DNA of 64,000 nucleotides from Elusimicrobia bacterium RIFOXYD2_FULL_34_15 (GCA_001800605.1 MGVS01000070.1:2910-66909), one strand, 5' to 3'. Positions 5,150 through 48,760 are shown, counted from the stretch's first letter. The notes: a model not told the origin generated them from the sequence alone. Translations and numbers: made by a program.

Positions 5150-5291
5150 TATGACTACAACCTGACCTTTTGAAGAACTCGAAGCTGACTTACGCTGAAC
5201 AATACGCTGATTGACGCAGACAAAATCAGTGTTTATCTGCGTTGTAATCCGCGTGAATCCGCTTCTATATCTTTTATGCGTGTATCTGCTT

Positions 5292-5690
5292 CTAATCTTT
5301 TCTAGCTTTATCATAAATTCGTCTCCGGATTTCTAATTTCTTGCTTCCAAAATTTATTAGTAAACCTAATTTATAATTACTTGCTTTTAGATAATACCAA
5401 AATTGTTTTTCATGTTCTTTTGTTATAAACGGCTGGCATTTAATTTCTATTAGGATTTTTTCATTAATAATTTTATCCGGAATGTAAGTTCCAACTTTAT
5501 TTTCATGATAATAAATATCTATTCTTTTTTGTTCTTCTACTTTAAGTCCTTGTTTTAATAATTCTAAACCAAGAGCGTTATCAACGATTGATTCCTTAAA
5601 TGCACCGTGAAATTCTTTCCAAATTTCGAAACATGCTCCTCTTATTTTATAAGTTTCTTTTTCGTATAAAAAATCCCCCATTTTTTTCAT
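5292..5690 (-). CDS. GxxExxY family protein (PD-(D/E)xK-fold, TIGR04256-like selfish small gene)
   Basis: N-terminal FLYEKETYKIRGACFEIWKEFHGAF matches the GxxExxY signature, and the C-terminal LINFGSKKLEIRR matches too. Its stop codon TAG is supplied by the repeat motif ATCTGCTTCTA. Confidence 0.7.
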   Translation of the reverse strand: MKKMGDFLYEKETYKIRGACFEIWKEFHGAFKESIVDNALGLELLKQGLKVEEQKRIDIYYHENKVGTYIPDKIINEKILIEIKCQPFITKEHEKQFWYYLKASNYKLGLLINFGSKKLEIRRRIYDKARKD

Positions 5691-5692
5691 CA

Positions 5693-5830
5693 GCTTAGAT
5701 CAGCGTTGCTATCAGCGTGTATCTGCTTCCATGCCCTTTCCGCGTAAATCTGCGTTCCAATCTGCGTAGATCTGCTTCAACGCACTTTCCGCGTAAATCT
5801 GCGTTCCAATCTGCGTAGATCTGCTTCTAT
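5693..5830. repeat. Repeat block of the ATCTGCGT/ATCTGCTTC family. It includes a perfect tandem duplication of a 43-nt unit, CTTTCCGCGTAAATCTGCGTTCCAATCTGCGTAGATCTGCTTC, at 5736-5778 and 5785-5827 (period 49).
   Basis: Direct reading of the sequence. Identical copies are separated by AACGCA. Confidence 0.8.
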
Positions 5831-5837
5831 GAATTTA

Positions 5838-9353: not shown

Positions 9354-9392
9354 AAAAAGGATATAATGAGATTGAAAAACCCAACAATCTCT

Positions 9393-9477
9393 GATTACAC
9401 CGATTAAACAGCAAGATTACACAGATTAGATACCGACAGTAATATCCGTGTAATCGTCTTTTAAAATCTGTGTAATC
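9393..9477 (-). promoter_or_regulatory. Cluster of GATTACAC(A/C)G motifs (GATTACAC x4) upstream of the large pilin gene
   Basis: The same motif pairs occur at 573-608, 22716-22838 and 44571-44622. Each is in sense orientation upstream of a gene. Confidence 0.35.
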
Positions 9478-9552
9478 AAGAGCGGTGAATGCTTTTCAAC
9501 GCTCTAATATTTATAACACAAAACACACAAAAAGTCAAGGAGTTTTTAAATT

Positions 9553-9716
9553 CAGTATACAGTACACAGGATACAGTCTTAAGAAAAATCATAAGTTAAA
9601 ATTAAATCTAAATAGTAAGAGCTATTTGCTATTTATGCGTGCTGTGTACTGTCTTTTTAGTGCTATATTCTGTGTACTGTATTCTGTATTCTGTATACTG
9701 AGTACTGTCTTTTTAA
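9553..9716. repeat. ACAGGATACAG/CTGTATTCTGTAT repeat block with inverted-orientation arms. MITE-like element, about 165 nt.
   Basis: Left arm cagtatacagtacacaggatacagtc, right arm ctgtattctgtattctgtatactgagtactgtc. Same family as 15412-15470 and 34680-34725. Confidence 0.5.
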
Positions 9717-14623: not shown

Positions 14624-15403
14624 TTAAATGTTACGAGTGATATATTTAAGAAAATTTATAATAGATTTCTTCTTTTTTATTAAACTAATTATTGCACTTC
14701 CTATGATAAAACCTTCGCAATATTTCTTTAATTTTTCTATATGTTCAGGTTTAGAAATACCGAAGCCAACAAACAATGGTTTTGAAGTTTTGTTTTTAAG
14801 TTTTTTTAAAAATGGAATTAATTCATCGGATAATTCTGCTCGCGCTCCTGTGATACCGGTTACTGCTGTGACATAAATAAAACCTGTGGATATTTTAGAT
14901 ATTTTTTCTGCTCTTTTTAAACCGCTTGTTAATGCTACAAGCGGTATATAAGCTATATTATATTTTTTTGCTAATTTTCTTATCAACGAACTTTCTTCAA
15001 AAGGTAAGTCAGGAATTATAATACCGTCTACTCCTGTTTTATGTGATTTGCTAAAAAAAGCATTCAAACCATAGTTATAAATCGGATTAAGATATCCCAT
15101 CAATATAACAGGGATTTTTGTTTTTTTTCTTATATTTTTTACAATAGAAAAACATTTTTCTAAATTTACATTATTTTCAAGTGCTTTTTGAGAAGAATAT
15201 TGTATTGTCGGACCATCAGCTATCGGATCTGAAAATGGTATCCCCAATTCAATTATATCAGAATATTTTTCTATTTCAATTATCAATTTCTCTGTAGTAT
15301 TTACATTTGGATAACCTGCAGTAAGAAATATAGAGATTGCTTTCTTTTTTTCTTTTTTTAATTTATATAATGTTTTTTCTAAATTATTCATAATGCAGCT
15401 CAC
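14624..15403 (-). CDS. trpA: Tryptophan synthase alpha chain
   Basis: FLTAGYP, ELGIPFSDPIADGPTIQ. Confidence 0.9.
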   Translation of the reverse strand: MSCIMNNLEKTLYKLKKEKKKAISIFLTAGYPNVNTTEKLIIEIEKYSDIIELGIPFSDPIADGPTIQYSSQKALENNVNLEKCFSIVKNIRKKTKIPVILMGYLNPIYNYGLNAFFSKSHKTGVDGIIIPDLPFEESSLIRKLAKKYNIAYIPLVALTSGLKRAEKISKISTGFIYVTAVTGITGARAELSDELIPFLKKLKNKTSKPLFVGFGISKPEHIEKLKKYCEGFIIGSAIISLIKKKKSIINFLKYITRNI

Positions 15404-15411
15404 AGGATACA

Positions 15412-15470
15412 GGATACAGGATACAGGATACAGGATACAGGATACAGGATACAGAATACAGAATACAGAA
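15412..15470. repeat. Microsatellite (CAGGATA)7(CAGAATA)3, the reverse complement of (CTGTATC)n. It lies directly upstream of the trpA start, between trpB and trpA.
   Basis: acaggatacaggatacaggatac...agaatacagaatacagaatt read directly. Confidence 0.85.
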
Positions 15471-15494
15471 TTATAAACTGCTAACGATCTTTCT

Positions 15495-15530
15495 TTTTAC
15501 CTCTCTACCTCTCTACCCTTCTACCTTGAT
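15495..15530. repeat. CTCTACC-family repeat, abutting and supplying the TAG stop of trpB
   Basis: cctctctacctctctacccttctacc. Related copies at 33985-34005, 34755-34790 and 42262-42306. Confidence 0.6.
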
Positions 15531-24059: not shown

Positions 24060-24097
24060 TTTACACGTTACCCATTACTCGTTACTCGTTACTTTCT

Positions 24098-25048: not shown

Positions 25049-25711
25049 TTATTTTTTTGGAAGCGTCATTAAAGTTGTGTTAATAACACCGTTAGCTTCC
25101 TCTTTTAACGGTGAGTGCAAAGCTTTATCTATAGTTTTTTCAACAAGTTGTGAGGCAAACGCTCTCCCGATATCCTTAAATTCAAATTCTTTTTTTGAAA
25201 CTTTTCGTTCATCTTCCCATAAAAGCTGTTCTGTTTTTGCATCAAATAATTTAAAATTTCCCTCGACAGTTCTTGCATAATAAAAACCAAGAGTAGTATA
25301 TTTAAACTCTATTACATCTCCGAAAAAAAGCCCGTCAACGTTTAATTTTTCACCTAATTCTTTCGGGGTGGTTGTCGGAAATTGCCCGGCTTCGGTAATA
25401 CCCATTTTTCTTAATTTCTCATCTATTTCTTCAAGCGGAATAGTGTTATAACCAATATTGGTTAGCCGTTTATTAAAAAGATACCGCAATAAAACCGGTG
25501 CATTCAAATCAATGGATTGGTTGGAAAACGGCAAAACAGCAACTCGCGCAGGCGGTATATAATTTTCTATTATATACTTTGCTTTCGGCGCACAACCAAT
25601 AAATAAAAAACAAATAACGAGTAATGAGTAACCAGTAAAAGACAAGTAATGAGTAACGGGTAACGAGTAACGGGGAACGGGTAAAAAGTAAAGTAATTTT
25701 AAATTTTTCAT
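25049..25711 (-). CDS. Lipoprotein, possibly the DUF799-type partner of CsgG-like proteins
   Basis: Lipobox FIGC and adjacency to the CsgG-like gene. N-terminal 30 aa (LPVPRYSLPVTHYLSFTGYSLLVI) are encoded by the GTAACGGG repeat. Confidence 0.35.
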   Translation of the reverse strand: MKNLKLLYFLPVPRYSLPVTHYLSFTGYSLLVICFLFIGCAPKAKYIIENYIPPARVAVLPFSNQSIDLNAPVLLRYLFNKRLTNIGYNTIPLEEIDEKLRKMGITEAGQFPTTTPKELGEKLNVDGLFFGDVIEFKYTTLGFYYARTVEGNFKLFDAKTEQLLWEDERKVSKKEFEFKDIGRAFASQLVEKTIDKALHSPLKEEANGVINTTLMTLPKK

Positions 25712-25771
25712 TGGTTTTATATTAGATTGAATAATTTTTAACTTTTAACTTTTAATTTTTAATTGCTTTTA

Positions 25772-26248: not shown

Positions 26249-26386
26249 AAAACCCCCAAAAAGGCAATTTAAAATTAAAAATTAAAAGTTATAATAAATT
26301 CAAGTTAAAATTTAAAGTTAAAAACTAAAATCAAGTCTTTGTTTTTGTCTCAATTTTTATTTATACTTTTGATTTTAACTTGCTTT

Positions 26387-28114
26387 TCAAGCTAAGCTTG
26401 TTATAATCTCATCCAACGCAGAACCTGCCGGTACCATGGGAAGAACATTTTCTTCTTCTTCTACAATGAAATCCATTATAACAGTTTTATCAATTTTTAA
26501 TGCATTTATTAATGTACTTTCAACATCTTCCTTCTTTGTAATTCTTATGCCAACAGCGCCGTACGATTCCGCTAATTTTACAAAATCCGGTATCATTGCC
26601 GCAGGTCTTTTAGCTGACGCATCCATAGCTAAACAGCCATCGGGTTTAGATAGACAAACCGCGGAATATCTTCTCTTATAGAACAGTTCCTGCCATTGAC
26701 GTACCATGCCAAGGCAAGCGTTATTTAAAATTACTATTTTAACATTTATGTTATTCAATACTGCAGTTGCAAGCTCTTGTATATTCATTTGAATTGAACC
26801 GTCTCCGGCTATATCAATAACTATTTTTTTAGGATTTGCAATTTTTGCACCTATAGCAGCCGGAAAACCATAGCCCATAGTTCCTAATCCGCCGCTTGAT
26901 AAAAAGTGTCTTGGAAATTTGGGTTTGTAGTATTGTGCCGCCCACATTTGGTTTTGACCCACTTCAGTCACAACTATTGCTTCCCCTTTGGTTATCTGCG
27001 AAATTTTATCGATAACATATTGCGGGCGAAGTTTACTATCTTTTTTATATGAGAACGGATTTGTTTTCTGCCATTCGGAAATTTTCTTTAACCATTCCTT
27101 GTTATTTTTCTTTTTTACATATTTTAATAACTCAGTAATAATACTTTTTGCATCGCCTACAACCGGAATATTAACAAAAACATTTTTAGATATAGATGTT
27201 GGGTCGATATCAATATGAATAATTTTCGCTTTTGGCGCAAATGCAGTAAGTTTGCCGGTTACCCTGTCGTCAAAACGGGCGCCGATAGCAATTATCAAAT
27301 CGCAATTTTGAAACGCAAGATTAGCAGCATAATTACCGTGCATACCCGGCATATAAAGATTTAGAGGATGATTTGGAGGAAAACATCCTATAGCTAATAG
27401 AGTTGTTGTCACGGGTGTGTGTATTTTTTCAGCAAGTTTTAATAATTCTAAAGAAGCATTAGATGAAATTATTCCGCCGCCTACATAAAGTAATGGTTGT
27501 TTAGCAGAATTAATTAATTCTGCTGCTTTTTTTATTTGGCCAGCGTGCCCTGTATAAACAGGTTTATAAGAGCGGATATCAACAGTTTCCGGATATTCAA
27601 ATTCTGTAACCGCGCGTTGAATGTCAACAGGTATATCTACAAGAACAGGTCCTTGCCTGCCTGTTTTTGCTATATAAAATGCTTCATGAATTGTTTTTGC
27701 AAGTTCTTTTACATCTTTAACTAGAAAATTATGTTTTGTTACAGGTCTAGTTATACCTGTAGTATCCGCTTCCTGAAAGGCATCGTTTCCAATTAAACTT
27801 GTTGCCACCTGTCCCGTAAATGCAACCATGGGTATAGAATCCATGTTTGCGGTAGCAAGTGCAGTTGTAAGATTTGTTGCTCCGGGACCGCTAGTTACTA
27901 AACAAACACCTACTTCACCGGTTGAGCGTGCATACCCGTCAGCCATATGACCTGCACCTTGTTCGTGCCGGGTTAGAACGAATCTAATTTTGTTTCTGTA
28001 ATCGTAAATTTTATCAAAAATAGGAAGGACTTGTCCTCCGGGAATTCCAAATACTACTTTCACATTTTCTTTTAATAGAGATTCTGCAAATATCTCTGCG
28101 CCTGTCTTTAACAT
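26387..28114 (-). CDS. ilvB: Acetolactate synthase large subunit (biosynthetic type)
   Basis: TPP-enzyme N, M and C domains. GDGSIQMNIQELAT is the TPP-binding motif. Confidence 0.9.
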   Translation of the reverse strand: MLKTGAEIFAESLLKENVKVVFGIPGGQVLPIFDKIYDYRNKIRFVLTRHEQGAGHMADGYARSTGEVGVCLVTSGPGATNLTTALATANMDSIPMVAFTGQVATSLIGNDAFQEADTTGITRPVTKHNFLVKDVKELAKTIHEAFYIAKTGRQGPVLVDIPVDIQRAVTEFEYPETVDIRSYKPVYTGHAGQIKKAAELINSAKQPLLYVGGGIISSNASLELLKLAEKIHTPVTTTLLAIGCFPPNHPLNLYMPGMHGNYAANLAFQNCDLIIAIGARFDDRVTGKLTAFAPKAKIIHIDIDPTSISKNVFVNIPVVGDAKSIITELLKYVKKKNNKEWLKKISEWQKTNPFSYKKDSKLRPQYVIDKISQITKGEAIVVTEVGQNQMWAAQYYKPKFPRHFLSSGGLGTMGYGFPAAIGAKIANPKKIVIDIAGDGSIQMNIQELATAVLNNINVKIVILNNACLGMVRQWQELFYKRRYSAVCLSKPDGCLAMDASAKRPAAMIPDFVKLAESYGAVGIRITKKEDVESTLINALKIDKTVIMDFIVEEEENVLPMVPAGSALDEIITSLA

Positions 28115-33533: not shown

Positions 33534-34703
33534 TTAGAGTTCGATTGCTGATATAATTTTTTTGATATTTGGTTCTAATACTTTTGGTTGTTTTGCCGAT
33601 TTTATTGCTCTATCAGGATCTTTCAGTCCATGTCCCGTTACCGTGCAAACAATCACACAGCCTGATTTTTGGATATTTATTTTTGAATTGAATTTTATAA
33701 GTCCGGCGACGGATGCTGCTGATGCCGGTTCGACAAAGACACCTTCTAAAGAAGCTAATAGTCTATATGCTTTTATTATTTCTGAATCAGTGACCATATC
33801 TATAACACCCTTTGATTCGTCTCTTGCTTCTTCTGCTTTTTTCCAACTTGCGGGATTTCCGATTTTTATAGCGGTTGCTATTGTCTTTGGGTTTTTTATT
33901 GGTTTACCTTTTACAATAGGTGCAGAACCGGATGCCTGAAAACCCATCATGTGTGGCAGGTTACAGGTCTCGCCACGGCGAGCAGGAAAAGGTAGAAAGG
34001 TAGAAAGGTTAGGACTTAATTTTAACCTTTTACTTTTAACTTTTAACTTTGATTTATCATTTGCATATTCTTTATAGCCTTTCCAGTAAGCAGTGATATT
34101 TCCGGCGTTTCCGACCGGAATAAAATGATAATCCGGAGCCCTGCCCAAAAAGTCGATTATTTCAAAAGCTGCGGTTTTTTGGCCTTCAATTCTATATGGA
34201 TTTACTGAATTAACAAGCGTAATCGGATAATTTTTTGTTATTTCAATAACGATTTTTAGTGCCTCATCAAAATTCCCTTTTAATGCTATGACCTTTGCTC
34301 CATGCATCATTGCCTGTGAAAGTTTGCCTAACGCGATAGAACCATCGGGAATTACAACTGAACATTTAAGTCCTGCTCTTGCGGAATACGCAGCAGCTGA
34401 CGCAGCGGTATTGCCGGTTGAAGCACAAATAACTGCTTTGCTTCCTTCTTCAACTGCTTTAGAAATTGCCATTGTCATACCGCGGTCTTTGAAAGAACCG
34501 GTTGGATTCATCCCTTCAAATTTTAAATAAATCTCAGAATTTACCTTTAAGAATTTTTCGAGGTTTCTTGCCCGTAACAATGGCGTATTACCCTCATAAA
34601 GCGTAACTATAGGTGTCTTGTCAGACACGGGTAGATACTTCCTATATCTATCAATAATCCCTTTATAAATCATATTTAAACCAGGATACAGAATACAGTA
34701 CAC
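33534..34703 (-). CDS. thrC: Threonine synthase, carrying an in-frame insertion of about 35 aa derived from intergenic repeat families
   Basis: PLP site [18 protein letters not shown], then ...[18 protein letters not shown]-[insert][14 protein letters not shown]. Confidence 0.85.
33955..34064. repeat. Composite repeat inserted in-frame in thrC. Units are tcgccacggcgag, (ggtagaaag)2 and (ttttaac)n.
   Basis: ggtctcgccacggcgagcaggaaaaggtagaaaggtagaaaggttaggacttaattttaaccttttacttttaacttttaactttga. It translates to [35 protein letters not shown]. Confidence 0.8.
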
Positions 34704-34790
34704 AGGATACAGTATTATAAGTTCTCGTCTATTAACTTCAAATTATAAACTTTTTCCTCTCTACCTTTTTCCCTTTTTACCGTATCTTTA
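34680..34790. repeat. thrC-hom intergenic repeats: an ACAGGATACAG family member plus a CTCTACC family member
   Basis: ccaggatacagaatacagtacacaggatacag ... cctctctacctttttccctttttacc. Confidence 0.7.
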
Positions 34791-37404: not shown

Positions 37405-37502
37405 CCTCGCGGATTCACGCTGATACCTACGCTGATCTACGCTGAACTTTCCGCGTTGTAATCCGCGTTTATCTGCTTCTATGCTTTCAGCGTGGATCTG
37501 CT
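37405..37502. repeat. ATCTGCGT/ATCTGCTTC family repeat block. It supplies the C-terminus and TGA stop of the 87-aa ORF.
   Basis: cgctgatctacgctgaactttccgcgttgtaatccgcgtttatctgcttctatgctttcagcgtggatctgcttc. Confidence 0.7.
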
Positions 37503-37750
37503 TCGAGTCTTTCAATGTACTCAGGGATCCGTTTAGACAATTCAAAAATCGCTAACCCAATTACTATGCATGCAAGTCCATAAACAACTTCAAAACCCGA
37601 ATATTTTGACCATTTAGCAAGCGGAACGAATTCTGACTCCGGAAAGCCGATGAGAGCATCATAAAGTCCTTTAAGTGCTACAATGCCCCCCCAGACAACA
37701 AAAATCCATCCGCTGCTTTTAAAAACTGCACGATATTTTATTTTTTGCAT
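37487..37750 (-). CDS. Small membrane protein (2 TM), unknown function
   Basis: 87 aa. Hydrophobic segments IFVVWGGIVAL and VVYGLACIVIGLAIF. Confidence 0.3.
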   Translation of the reverse strand: MQKIKYRAVFKSSGWIFVVWGGIVALKGLYDALIGFPESEFVPLAKWSKYSGFEVVYGLACIVIGLAIFELSKRIPEYIERLEADPR

Positions 37751-37802: not shown

Positions 37803-37878
37803 AATTTTTTCCGCCACTATTTCTCGGGCGGACCCGCCCCCGCCACTGAGACATTGGCGGGCAAGAACGACTTAGTGG
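37803..37878. repeat. GC-rich hairpin repeats, CCGCCACT...AGTGGCGG family
   Basis: ccgccactatttctcgggcgg, cccgccactgagacattggcggg, acgacttagtggcggg. The relative at 60318-60364 shares ACGACTTAGTGGCGG. Confidence 0.65.
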
Positions 37879-42216: not shown

Positions 42217-42328
42217 TTATTAGATTTTACTAAATTTTATTTATTTAGGCAAGAACGAATATAAAAGGTAAAGAGGTAAAAAGGTAGAAAGGTAGAGAGG
42301 TAAAAATGTAACAGTAAAATTAAACTTC

Positions 42329-42357
42329 TTGACAAGGTGATTTTGCCATTATATAAT
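42329..42357 (+). promoter_or_regulatory. Consensus sigma70-type promoter TTGACA-17-TATAAT for the PBP1A gene. The ATG is 7 nt downstream of the -10, so the transcript is likely leaderless.
   Basis: TTGACA at 42329-42334, TATAAT at 42352-42357. No SD before the ATG at 42364. Confidence 0.5.
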
Positions 42358-48559: not shown

Positions 48560-48760
48560 GAATTACGCATTAACCAGCCTGTCCCGATTCATCGGAATTA
48601 CCCGTTACTTAGCCTGTCCTGCCGCCCATGGCGAGCCTCGCCCCTTTGGGGCGGGAGCATTTTAAACTGTCGAAGGATTACTCATTACCCCGCCACTAGG
48701 TCTTTGGCGGGCAAGCATTACCCGTTACCCGTTACTCGTTACTATCTTTTTATTCTTTTT
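48560..48760. repeat. Composite intergenic repeat block. It contains a CAGCCTGTCCCGATTCATCGG hairpin unit, GC-rich hairpins (gccgcccatggcgag, ctcgcccctttggggcggg, ccgccactaggtctttggcgg) and GTAACGGG units.
   Basis: The same units recur at 17205-17260 and 21050-21100. Confidence 0.7.

What the first reader, a model, noticed from the sequence alone, without database searches (positions are those of the whole stretch)
33955..34064. In-frame insertion of a composite intergenic repeat (about 105 nt, 35 aa) inside threonine synthase
thrC reads ...[18 protein letters not shown], then [35 protein letters not shown], then [14 protein letters not shown]. The inserted stretch is built from repeat units that otherwise occur only between genes in this window: a tcgccacggcgag GC hairpin, (ggtagaaag)2 of the CTCTACC family, and (ttttaac)n of the TTAAAA family. 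The frame is preserved and the ORF continues to a normal ThrC C-terminus, so this is not a disruption.

Either an essential enzyme tolerates a mobile mini-repeat in a surface loop, or this is an assembly artefact.
Basis: seen in the sequence. Interest (0 to 1): 0.75.

Follow-up and report, generated by a model that had tools for sequence, protein, structure and literature searches.

The report
Translated repeat hairpin inside threonine synthase
An essential amino-acid enzyme of an uncultivated groundwater bacterium carries, in frame, a hairpin-forming cassette of 7- and 8-base tandem repeats in a surface loop, and related bacteria carry a matching cassette at the same spot, so it is a long-lived, evolving passenger and not an assembly error.

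Summary
thrC (33534-34673, minus strand) has a 39-residue loop (203-241). The same loop is 12 residues in other phyla, so the net insert is 27 codons.

The insert has three parts: a heptamer array (AAAGTTA, ~4.5 copies), an inverted octamer array (CCTTTCTA, ~3 copies), and a nested 14-nt GC palindrome. The two array units also occur in intergenic arrays of the window. The GC palindrome is unique. Two independent assemblies are base-identical, so this is not an artefact.

It is not a private insertion. Ten related Elusimicrobiota thrC genes carry a cassette of the same architecture at the same codon position. The repeat units differ between lineages, but the two arms stay complementary (permutation p=4e-5). 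Some lineages have lost it.

AlphaFold places it as a disordered loop between a helix and a strand. Array imperfections remove stop codons.

The cassette is more conserved than synonymous sites. Its type does not follow the ThrC tree.

In about 1.3 Mb examined, all 33 deep-intragenic 7/8-nt arrays lie in thrC, thrB (or an analogue) and valS.

Best reading: a tolerated DNA-level repeat cassette, like Rickettsia palindromic elements, kept uniform by slippage, template switching and exchange between loci. A functional nucleic-acid element is not excluded.

The parts
33534..34673 (-). thrC coding sequence (379 aa). The ATG is at 34673. The longer GTG-started ORF reaching 34703 runs into the upstream repeat array.
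   Evidence: The protein is 100% identical to P0001, 'threonine synthase, Elusimicrobia bacterium RIFOXYD2_FULL_34_15'.
33951..34067 (-). Codons 203-241: the whole helix-to-strand loop, 39 aa. The canonical loop is 12 aa.
33972..34052 (-). Codons 208-234: the net 27-codon insert, predicted to be disordered.
   Evidence: pLDDT is below 50 for residues 208-234 only. Helix 191-206 lies before it and strand 241-247 after it.
34016..34053 (-). Arm A: a heptamer array, sense (AAAGTTA/AAGTTAA), about 4.5 copies. A -1/+1 imperfection (AAGT-AA, then AAGGTTAA) removes the in-frame TAA that a perfect array would create.
   Evidence: The same imperfection is present in L083.
34010..34019 (-). A/T-rich centre, the loop of the hairpin.
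   Evidence: the MFE structures are centred here.
33984..34011 (-). Arm B: an octamer array, sense (CCTTTCTA), about 3 copies. On the plus strand it reads GGTAGAAA. It belongs to the same family as the arrays upstream of promoters at 15498-15527, 34756-34781 and 42263-42311.
33969..33982 (.). Nested 14-nt GC-rich palindrome CTCGCCACGGCGAG. It is unique to this genome's copy and encodes part of PARRGET.
   Evidence: It is absent from the otherwise similar cassette of L083.
26259..26390 (.). Intergenic periodic palindrome in the ilvN|ilvB spacer, built of the same AAAGTTA-type units. It is the closest relative of the thrC cassette in the window.
   Evidence: I4, I8; 48 nt at 79% identity, E=6e-6, including non-array flanks.
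25731..25764 (.). Intergenic (TTTTAAC)n array of the arm-A family.
42263..42311 (+). Intergenic (AAAAGGTA/GGTAGAAA)x6 array of the arm-B family, about 20 nt upstream of a TTGACA-17-TATAAT promoter-like site.
34682..34781 (-). The thrC upstream region, read in the direction of transcription: an octamer array (34756-34781), a promoter-like site (34741-34714), then a heptamer array (CAGGATA)n at 34682-34712 that abuts the start codon.

Best explanation
**What it is.** The segment is a translated, structurally tolerated repeat cassette that I call a periodic quasi-palindrome. It consists of two inverted arrays of 7-8-nt tandem repeats around an A/T-rich centre. It lies in the surface connection between helix 191-206 and strand 241-247 of threonine synthase. 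In this genome it also carries a nested GC palindrome.

**History.**
- It was present in the ancestor of a sub-clade of Elusimicrobiota.
- It has persisted at the same codon position since then.
- Several lineages have lost it.

**What it does (inferred).** The enzyme does not need it. It loops out as a disordered peptide. Purifying selection acts only on reading frame and on absence of stop codons.

**How it stays repetitive and palindromic (inferred).** DNA-level processes are responsible:
- replication slippage within arrays;
- template switching between the two arms;
- copy-paste or gene conversion with arrays of the same unit family elsewhere in the same genome.

**What it resembles.** In effect it behaves like a Rickettsia palindromic element. 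In make-up it is built from the heptanucleotide tandem arrays that crowd the intergenic DNA of these genomes.

**Shown versus inferred.**
- Shown: anatomy, in-frame translation potential, orthologous position, co-varying arms, stop-avoiding imperfections, unit families shared within a genome.
- Supported only by structure prediction: the disordered-loop placement.
- Inferred: the homogenising mechanisms and the lack of host function.
For: **Position and structure.**
- Anatomy and in-frame status.
- Loop placement: only residues 208-234 have pLDDT below 50. The rest of the model is confident (pTM 0.84) and matches solved ThrC structures (TMt 0.87 to 2zsj).
- The canonical loop is 12 aa in other phyla and 7-13 aa in other Elusimicrobiota.

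**The cassette in relatives.**
- The same architecture sits at the same codon position in L083, L084, L085, L086, L090, L097, L103, L108 and L109.
- The empty site in L088 (EWKTRPK) is shorter than the canonical loop, as expected after an imprecise deletion.

**Hairpin.**
- All inserts fold as one long hairpin.
- Stouffer z over 10 inserts is -10.5 for the sense strand and -13.9 for the antisense strand.
- The window copy folded as plus-strand DNA gives z=-3.24, with 0 of 200 shuffles as stable.
- Arm A is more complementary to arm B of the same species than to arm B of other species: 14.4 against 7.8, permutation p=4e-5.

**Selection on frame only.**
- Every copy is open and in frame.
- Array imperfections remove stops.
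- The peptides share no conserved sequence.

**Unit families shared within a genome.**
- In the window, arm-A and arm-B units recur at 7 and 3 loci respectively, the thrC copy included.
- The cassette has a 48-nt match to the intergenic element at 26291-26337.
- The same unit occurs in two genes of one genome in L035, L057 and L085.
- The window's arm B is an octamer of the window's own GGTAGAAA family. The otherwise similar L083 cassette has a heptamer there.
Against: **Conservation above the neutral level.**
- Third-codon-position identity peaks at 70-83% inside the cassette. The background is 30-50% in three species pairs.
- Four-fold sites are saturated at 29-43% identity.

**Incongruent phylogeny.** The cassette type does not follow the ThrC tree. 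The window shares the AAGTTAA type with the distant P0025, not with its nearer relatives. This needs either lateral replacement or selection.

**Restricted gene distribution.** All 33 deep-intragenic arrays found are in thrC, thrB (or an analogue) and valS. They come from about 1.3 Mb and roughly 1150 ORFs. A purely neutral process would not be expected to be so restricted.

**Strand asymmetry.** G.U pairs number 48 on the antisense strand against 12 on the sense strand. This could indicate a structure that works on the other strand.

**Birth problem.** Seven-nt units cannot arise in an ORF by single slippage steps without frameshifts.
Confidence: 0.55

Rival explanations
1. The cassette is a functional cis-acting nucleic-acid element embedded in the coding sequence and kept by selection. 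It could be a periodic hairpin or repeat array read by an RNA- or DNA-binding factor. It could also act as an antisense RNA or an mRNA processing site that tunes expression of the threonine-specific genes. This would resemble the way TRAP or HutP read periodically spaced triplets in mRNA. That analogy comes from my own knowledge and was not tested.
For: - The cassette is far more conserved than synonymous sites, and the flanks show no such rise.
- The arms co-vary.
- Intragenic arrays are restricted to thrC, thrB or an analogue, and valS across several phyla.
- The same unit occurs in different genes of one genome.
- Arrays of the same families lie directly upstream of start codons and of promoter-like sites.
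- G.U pairs are 48 on the antisense strand against 12 on the sense strand.
Against: - One genome uses many unrelated units and shows no shared core motif. L085 has AGTGTAA, CCCAATCT, TCAGAAT, TTTACAC and AGCGGTC.
- Several lineages lost the cassette and kept the operon.
- There is no excess of promoters or terminators and no Rfam hit.
- The G.U asymmetry can also come from avoidance of T-rich stop and hydrophobic codons in the pyrimidine-rich arm.
- Thr codons are only about twofold enriched, by hand count.
Confidence: 0.25
2. Recent, independent insertions of mobile MITE-like elements at a target hotspot. On this view the window's cassette is a lineage-specific new arrival, not an inherited one.
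For: - Cassette type is incongruent with the ThrC tree.
- Identity is high and confined to the element.
- The left junction lies after GGCAAATTC in the four lineages that keep those codons, and these lineages carry three unit types (L083, L086, L090, L103).
- Related intergenic elements exist in the window.
Against: - No terminal inverted repeats distinct from the arrays and no target-site duplication are visible at the junctions.
- No full-length second copy exists in the window.
- The A-rich centre and the 'xAGTTxx / xxAACTx' core are shared by most lineages, as expected from descent.
- In ThrB, arrays replace native sequence with no length change. That is conversion-like, not insertion-like.
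Confidence: 0.12
3. Contingency locus. The heptamer tracts, whose unit is not a multiple of 3, would let thrC and thrB switch off and on by slippage. This would give reversible threonine auxotrophy in a cross-feeding community.
For: - Units of 7 nt inside ORFs of conditionally dispensable biosynthetic genes.
- This is the only way that stepwise slippage could create such arrays inside an ORF.
Against: - The tracts are short (3-5 copies) and imperfect.
- All 11 thrC alleles read at the DNA level are in frame.
- Eight contigs of this genome carry the identical protein, and the two assemblies compared at the DNA level are base-identical.
- The 90% cluster has a single member.
- valS is strictly essential yet also carries arrays.
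Confidence: 0.05
4. Assembly artefact or chimeric join.
For: None found. Repeats can in principle mislead assemblers.
Against: - Two assemblies, whose contig names indicate different assemblers, have identical sequence over 5140 nt.
- The ORF is intact.
- Orthologous cassettes occur in 10 other genomes from unrelated studies.
Confidence: 0.01

Closest known systems
Rickettsia palindromic elements (RPEs): selfish palindromic repeats inserted in frame in housekeeping genes (review PMC10969869)
   Same: - A short palindromic, hairpin-forming repeat.
- Inserted in frame in a metabolic enzyme and translated.
- Located where the fold tolerates it.
- Related copies also lie between genes.
   Different: - RPEs are about 150 bp and fall into families with a conserved encoded peptide.
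- This cassette is about 80 nt, built from 7/8-nt tandem units read in all three frames.
- It has no conserved peptide.
- Its unit sequence turns over between lineages while its position is kept.
- The host phylum is different.
Heptanucleotide tandem arrays: long simple sequence repeats of 5-11 nt, TAACTGA repeats of Beggiatoaceae and cyanobacteria (PMC4679880), cyanobacterial STRR
   Same: - Units of 7 nt in short tandem arrays.
- Mostly intergenic and close to start codons.
- The rare intragenic copies give 7-aa periodic peptides and avoid orientations that create stops.
   Different: - The unit is not TAACTGA.
- Several unit families coexist in each genome.
- Here two arrays are paired as inverted arms.
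- They sit deep inside a conserved enzyme, not at ORF ends.
- The site is orthologous across a clade.
Tandem repeats of Borg elements that create new disordered regions in proteins (PMC9879509, abstract only)
   Same: Fast-evolving tandem repeats inside ORFs that add intrinsically disordered protein segments.
   Different: - From my own knowledge, intragenic Borg repeat units are multiples of 3 nt and are direct repeats only.
- Here the units are 7-8 nt and are arranged as a palindrome.
- The host is a chromosomal housekeeping gene.
REP/BIME-type GC-rich extragenic palindromes
   Same: The nested 14-nt GC palindrome is a small GC-rich hairpin in a genome whose window is 34% G+C. Comparable nested GC palindromes occur in ThrC site 2 of L108 and L034.
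   Different: - It is unique in the window and loci.
- It is intragenic.
- No RAYT gene was examined.

Membership tests
RPE-like in-frame palindromic repeat | Palindromic sequence able to form a hairpin | tested here: met
   - window plus-strand DNA fold z=-3.24, with 0 of 200 shuffles as stable.
- every orthologous insert folds as one long hairpin.
RPE-like in-frame palindromic repeat | Inserted in frame in a protein-coding gene, with no stop codons | tested here: met
   all 11 thrC copies read at the DNA level are open and in frame.
RPE-like in-frame palindromic repeat | Insertion site compatible with the protein fold (surface loop) | tested here: met
   - the extra residues lie between helix 191-206 and strand 241-247, with pLDDT below 50. 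The rest of the model matches solved ThrC structures.
- This rests on a prediction only. Solvent exposure was not computed.
RPE-like in-frame palindromic repeat | Multi-copy dispersed family in the same genome | tested here: inconclusive
   - Unit arrays recur at 7 and 3 loci, thrC copy included.
- One intergenic element gives a 48-nt match at 79% identity.
- No full-length second copy was found in the 64 kb available.
RPE-like in-frame palindromic repeat | Conserved encoded peptide per family | tested here: not met
   the insert peptides of orthologues share no conserved sequence beyond a K/E/N-rich centre.
MITE | Terminal inverted repeats plus target-site duplication | tested here: inconclusive
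   the arms are themselves inverted arrays. No duplication is evident at the junctions. The junctions cannot be set to the base.
Heptanucleotide tandem arrays (LSSR / STRR / TAACTGA type) | Tandem array of a 5-11-nt unit, longer than chance | tested here: met
   - (TRF).
- 10 matches against 0.04 expected, and 24 against 4.3 expected.
Heptanucleotide tandem arrays (LSSR / STRR / TAACTGA type) | Predominantly intergenic, often next to start codons | tested here: met
   all other arrays in the window are intergenic or within 75 nt of an ORF start.
TAACTGA repeat family | Unit sequence TAACTGA | tested here: not met
   1 match with 2 mismatches, against 0.75 expected by chance.
REP elements (for the GC palindrome) | Many copies per genome, extragenic | tested here: not met
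   a single copy in the window and loci, and it is intragenic. The rest of the genome was not available.
Phase-variable contingency locus | Long, near-perfect tract with length polymorphism that switches the frame | tested here: not met
   - The tracts have 3-5 imperfect copies.
- The assemblies are identical.
- The 90% cluster has a single member.
- Read-level polymorphism is not testable here.
Translational bypass or coding-gap element | The insert breaks the frame or contains stops and is skipped by ribosomes | tested here: not met
   every insert length is a multiple of 3, and stops are avoided through array imperfections.

The most novel reading that the evidence does not exclude
The periodic hairpin cassettes and arrays inside thrC, thrB (or its analogue) and valS are functional, selected nucleic-acid elements. 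On this reading they are periodic sites read on RNA or DNA by a lineage-specific factor, or antisense-strand structures, that regulate threonine-branch genes from within their coding sequences in several uncultivated phyla. The protein loops would serve only as permissive housing for these elements.
Probability: 0.2. Interest if true: 0.85.

Novelty: new variant of a known kind. Interest (0 to 1): 0.62.

Why it matters
- It extends the idea of selfish palindromic DNA translated inside essential enzymes from Rickettsia to free-living candidate phyla, with a different construction: inverted arrays of 7-8-nt units.
- It shows that such a cassette can occupy one codon position for a very long time while its sequence turns over in concert.
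- It exposes a pattern that is easy to test. In about 1.3 Mb of Elusimicrobiota, Omnitrophota and other genomes, every deep-intragenic heptamer or octamer array found lies in thrC, thrB or an analogue, or valS. Different genes of one genome share the same unit.
- If this reflects a mutational or copy-paste process, it gives a handle on how heptanucleotide arrays spread, which published work has left open. If it reflects selection, it points to regulatory elements hidden in coding loops.
- Practically, annotators and structure predictors should expect these loops and should not treat them as errors.

Tried and rejected
- **Genome-collection scan.** It was still useful as an outgroup set.
- **Variable-gap DNA patterns.** The revised pattern required AAAA in the centre, so it is biased toward that motif. 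It also picked up an unrelated long-loop lineage (YYELRKKNYKFKNKNLNIDCENKLP) that has no arrays.
- **GC palindrome.** There is no second copy anywhere. Other GC hairpins of the window are unrelated.
- **Rfam.** No family reached the gathering score in the window.
- **Internal promoter or terminator.** No excess of either.
- **Many genes carrying inserts.** Among 14 syntenic genes in up to 11 genomes, only ThrC shows repeat-built length changes.
- **Attenuator-like Thr/Ile codon runs.** Thr is only about twofold enriched by hand count. Not pursued.
- **Translational bypass, intron or intein.** Rejected, because all copies are in frame and stop-free.
- **Recombination of a thrC segment with its flanks.** Rejected for window/L083. 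Identity is raised only inside the cassette, and the flanks are at background.
- **RNA fold of the sense strand of the window copy alone.** Not significant (z=-0.8).
- **Intergenic arrays in general.** Some are not hairpins at all, for example 15400-15530 with z=+2.65.

Full report
**1. The observation**

- The minus-strand ORF 33534-34673 encodes a 379-aa threonine synthase. It gives a Pfam PALP hit at 4.9e-70.
- It is 100% identical to the protein annotated for 'Elusimicrobia bacterium RIFOXYD2_FULL_34_15'.
- Against the solved Aquifex enzyme 2zsj, the alignment breaks at query 206/233, and residues 207-232 have no counterpart. The T. thermophilus enzyme gives the same break. The B. subtilis and M. 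tuberculosis enzymes also align as two stretches, the first ending at query 204-205.
- The loop from Y203 to H241 is 39 residues.
- I fetched 80 genomes of other phyla. In the 60 where the loop could be read, it is 12 residues in 56.
- In other Elusimicrobiota (Endomicrobium, Elusimicrobiaceae and others) the loop is 7-13 residues.

**2. Anatomy, read on the sense strand**

- Arm A is about 4.5 copies of AAAGTTA (34016-34053).
- The centre is short and A/T-rich (34010-34019).
- Arm B is about 3 copies of the octamer CCTTTCTA (33984-34011).
- A 14-nt GC palindrome follows (33969-33982), then AAC CTG CCA, which rejoins the canonical 'LP'.
- The octamer pattern has 10 matches in the window against 0.04 expected. 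The heptamer pattern has 24 against 4.3.
- The other copies of these units are intergenic: 15498-15527, 34756-34781 and 42263-42311 for the octamer, and 12283, 25731-25764, 26271-26330, 37886 and 49283 for the heptamer.
- The window is 91.6% coding. Even so, the thrC arrays are the only ones lying deep inside a gene.
- The GC palindrome is unique in the window and in all loci fetched.

**3. Not an artefact**

- The exact protein is encoded on 8 contigs.
- Two ENA assemblies whose contig names indicate different assemblers are identical to the window over 5140 nt.
- The 90%-identity cluster of this protein has one member. No strain variant without the insert is known in a collection of about 15 billion proteins.

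**4. The two arrays are inverted arms of a hairpin**

- The plus strand of 33955-34064, folded as DNA, gives the GC hairpin plus one long interrupted hairpin pairing the two arrays. The z-score is -3.24, and none of 200 shuffles is as stable.
- The sense strand folded as RNA is weak (z=-0.8).

**5. The cassette is orthologous, not private**

- An alignment of 34 ThrC sequences shows variable-length segments at exactly this site in many Elusimicrobiota.
- I read the DNA of ten of them: L083, L084, L085, L086, L090, L097, L103, L106, L108 and L109.
- Nine have the same layout: a heptamer array of about 4 copies, an A-rich centre (GAAAAA-like), then a second array.
- The second array approximates the reverse complement of the first. 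Examples are AGTTCAG/ATGAACT, AGTGTAA/TTACACC, GTTGnnA/CTCAACy, CGGTTGG/yCAACTr, CAGATAT/CATCTGG and GAGATAC/TCACATC.
- L106 instead has one array plus a GC-rich hairpin. L107 has only a GC-rich hairpin.
- L088 has an empty site (EWKTRPK) that is shorter than the canonical loop, as expected after an imprecise deletion.
- Each insert folds as a single long hairpin. Stouffer z over ten inserts is -10.5 (sense) and -13.9 (antisense).
- Arm A matches the reverse complement of arm B of the same species better than that of other species: 14.4 against 7.8, permutation p=4e-5.
- Most units are variants of xAGTTxx paired with xxAACTx. Changes such as AGTG with CAC, and AGAT with ATCT, occur on both arms. 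This is what descent with concerted change would produce.

**6. Protein level**

- AlphaFold2 with the 34-sequence alignment gives a confident ThrC fold (pTM 0.84). Residues 208-234 are the only segment with pLDDT below 50. That segment has exactly the length of the net insert. It lies between helix 191-206 and strand 241-247.
- The model matches solved ThrC structures (TMt 0.87 to 2zsj).
- The helix begins just after the GNAGN loop, which from my own knowledge binds the cofactor phosphate. Its far end, where the insert sits, should then be remote from the active site. I could not measure that distance.
- Catalytic motifs are invariant in the alignment.
- The insert peptides share no sequence.

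**7. Selection on frame**

- A 7-nt unit is read in all three frames.
- A perfect (AAGTTAA)x3 in this frame would give an in-frame TAA. In the window the third unit has lost a T (AAGT-AA) and the next has gained a base (AAGGTTAA).
- L083 has the same -1/+1 solution.
- In L084, a perfect (ATGAACT)x3 would give TGA, and the array is interrupted just before that point.
- All inserts are multiples of 3 and free of stops. This rules out bypassed or spliced 'coding gaps'.

**8. Observations the simple neutral-passenger model does not explain**

- **(a) Conservation.**
  - Four-fold sites are saturated between window and L083 (29% identical), and among L084, L109 and L097 (40-43%).
  - Third-position identity along thrC nevertheless peaks at 70-83% exactly in the cassette, with the flanks at background.
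- **(b) Phylogeny.**
  - Cassette type does not follow a rough ThrC tree. The window shares the AAGTTAA type with the distant P0025. AGTTCAG occurs in three non-sister lineages.
- **(c) Gene distribution in Elusimicrobiota.**
  - In the window plus ten Elusimicrobiota loci (about 230 kb), all 21 arrays lying at least 100 nt from both ORF ends are in thrC or thrB.
  - In ThrB the arrays replace native sequence with no change in length.
- **(d) Gene distribution in other phyla.**
  - In the 80 loci of other phyla (1.06 Mb, 967 ORFs), all 12 such arrays fall in just four genes.
  - Five are in a second ThrC loop (after AGLIKY), five in ValRS, one in a GHMP-type homoserine kinase, and one in an ApgM-like ORF next to thrC.
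  - Site 2 of L013 is again an inverted pair of arrays. Site 2 of L034 has arrays plus a nested GC palindrome.
- **(e) Shared units within a genome.**
  - Different genes of one genome share the same unit: L035 thrC and valS (CCGAACA), L057 thrC and valS (CAAACAGG), L085 thrC and thrB (TTACACy).
  - Orthologous sites in different genomes have different units.
- **(f) Strand asymmetry.**
  - The hairpins have 48 G.U pairs on the antisense strand against 12 on the sense strand.

**9. Interpretation**

I commit to a tolerated DNA-level cassette.

- It was inherited at this loop.
- It is kept repetitive and palindromic by slippage, by arm-to-arm template switching, and by exchange with arrays of the same family elsewhere in the genome. 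Point (e), the 48-nt match to the intergenic element at 26291-26337, and the window's octamer arm B all speak for such exchange.
- Exchange between loci, or lateral replacement, would also account for points (a) and (b).
- The G.U asymmetry can come from avoidance of T-rich stop and hydrophobic codons in the pyrimidine-rich arm.
- At four-fold sites the sense strand has C over G (skew -0.16).

The restriction to thrC, thrB and valS remains unexplained. So does conservation above the synonymous level. These keep a functional-element reading alive. I give it about 0.2-0.25.

**10. Comparison with known systems**

- **RPEs.** It works like Rickettsia palindromic elements: in frame, palindromic and fold-compatible (PMC10969869). 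It fails the conserved-peptide criterion and is built differently.
- **Heptanucleotide arrays.** Its building blocks belong to the class of heptanucleotide tandem arrays (PMC4679880 and the work cited there). It is not the TAACTGA family.
- **Literature.** Searches of the held library found no description of such cassettes in Elusimicrobia or Omnitrophica.
- **Novelty rating.** I rate it a new variant of a known kind.

Noticed in passing
window 15402-15527, 34682-34781, 42263-42340: A recurring upstream module, read in the direction of transcription:
- an octamer array (GGTAGARA)n;
- then a promoter-like site, TTGAAG-16-TATAAT upstream of thrC and TTGACA-17-TATAAT at 42323-42351;
- then, at two of the three loci, a heptamer array (TATCCTG/ATCCTGT)n that runs up to the start codon with no obvious Shine-Dalgarno sequence.
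   Followed up: partly
L084, L085, L088, L108, L109: thrB (e.g. L085 16248-16276, 16360-16394, 16931-16954): Heptamer arrays encode native-length segments of homoserine kinase at three sites (around aa 35-47, 78-90 and 262-270). The units differ between genomes and the protein length does not change.
   Followed up: partly
L009, L011, L013, L016, L034, L035, L049, L057 and others: thrC 'site 2' (after AGLIKY, before VCxLTGHGLKD); also L083-L086, L108: A second ThrC loop carries in-frame 7/8-nt arrays, inverted array pairs or GC palindromes in Omnitrophota, Nitrospirota and other phyla. The window's own site 2 is plain.
   Followed up: partly
L001, L027, L035, L054, L057: valS: Valyl-tRNA synthetase carries in-frame 7/8-nt arrays at two positions (around aa 207 and aa 430-470). 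In L035 and L057 the unit is the same as in that genome's thrC.
   Followed up: partly
L085 11125-16145, L088 11022-11985, L108 11204-14069, L109 11171-13302: Restriction-modification and other accessory genes are inserted between thrC and thrB in four relatives. In the window, L084, L086 and L090 the next ORF after thrC abuts or overlaps it (thrB, confirmed by Pfam in the window and L084). The thrC|thrB junction looks like an integration hotspot.
   Followed up: no
window 37840-37865 and 48690-48715: Two copies of a 26-nt GC-rich hairpin motif, CCGCCACTnnGnCnTTGGCGGGCAAG, lie in GC-rich intergenic stretches. None is expected by chance. There is no Rfam match.
   Followed up: partly
window 5251-5301, 5699-5831, 37417-37520: Another repeat family with 27- and 49-nt periods (ATCTGCTTC...TTTCCGCGT) lies in and near intergenic DNA. 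It is unrelated to the heptamer arrays.
   Followed up: no
window 9385-9485 and 9545-9694: Two intergenic inverted-array hairpins (DNA fold z=-4.8 and -3.65), built from GATTACAC-like and ACAGGAT/CAGTATA-like units. By contrast, the large (ACAGGAT)x9.6 array at 15402-15468 has no hairpin partner (z=+2.65).
   Followed up: partly
window, whole: Nearly all long ORFs are on the minus strand. The arrays at 24061-24093 (TTACTCG) and 25615-25684 (TAACGAG) are inverted copies of one family. They flank a two-gene block.
   Followed up: no
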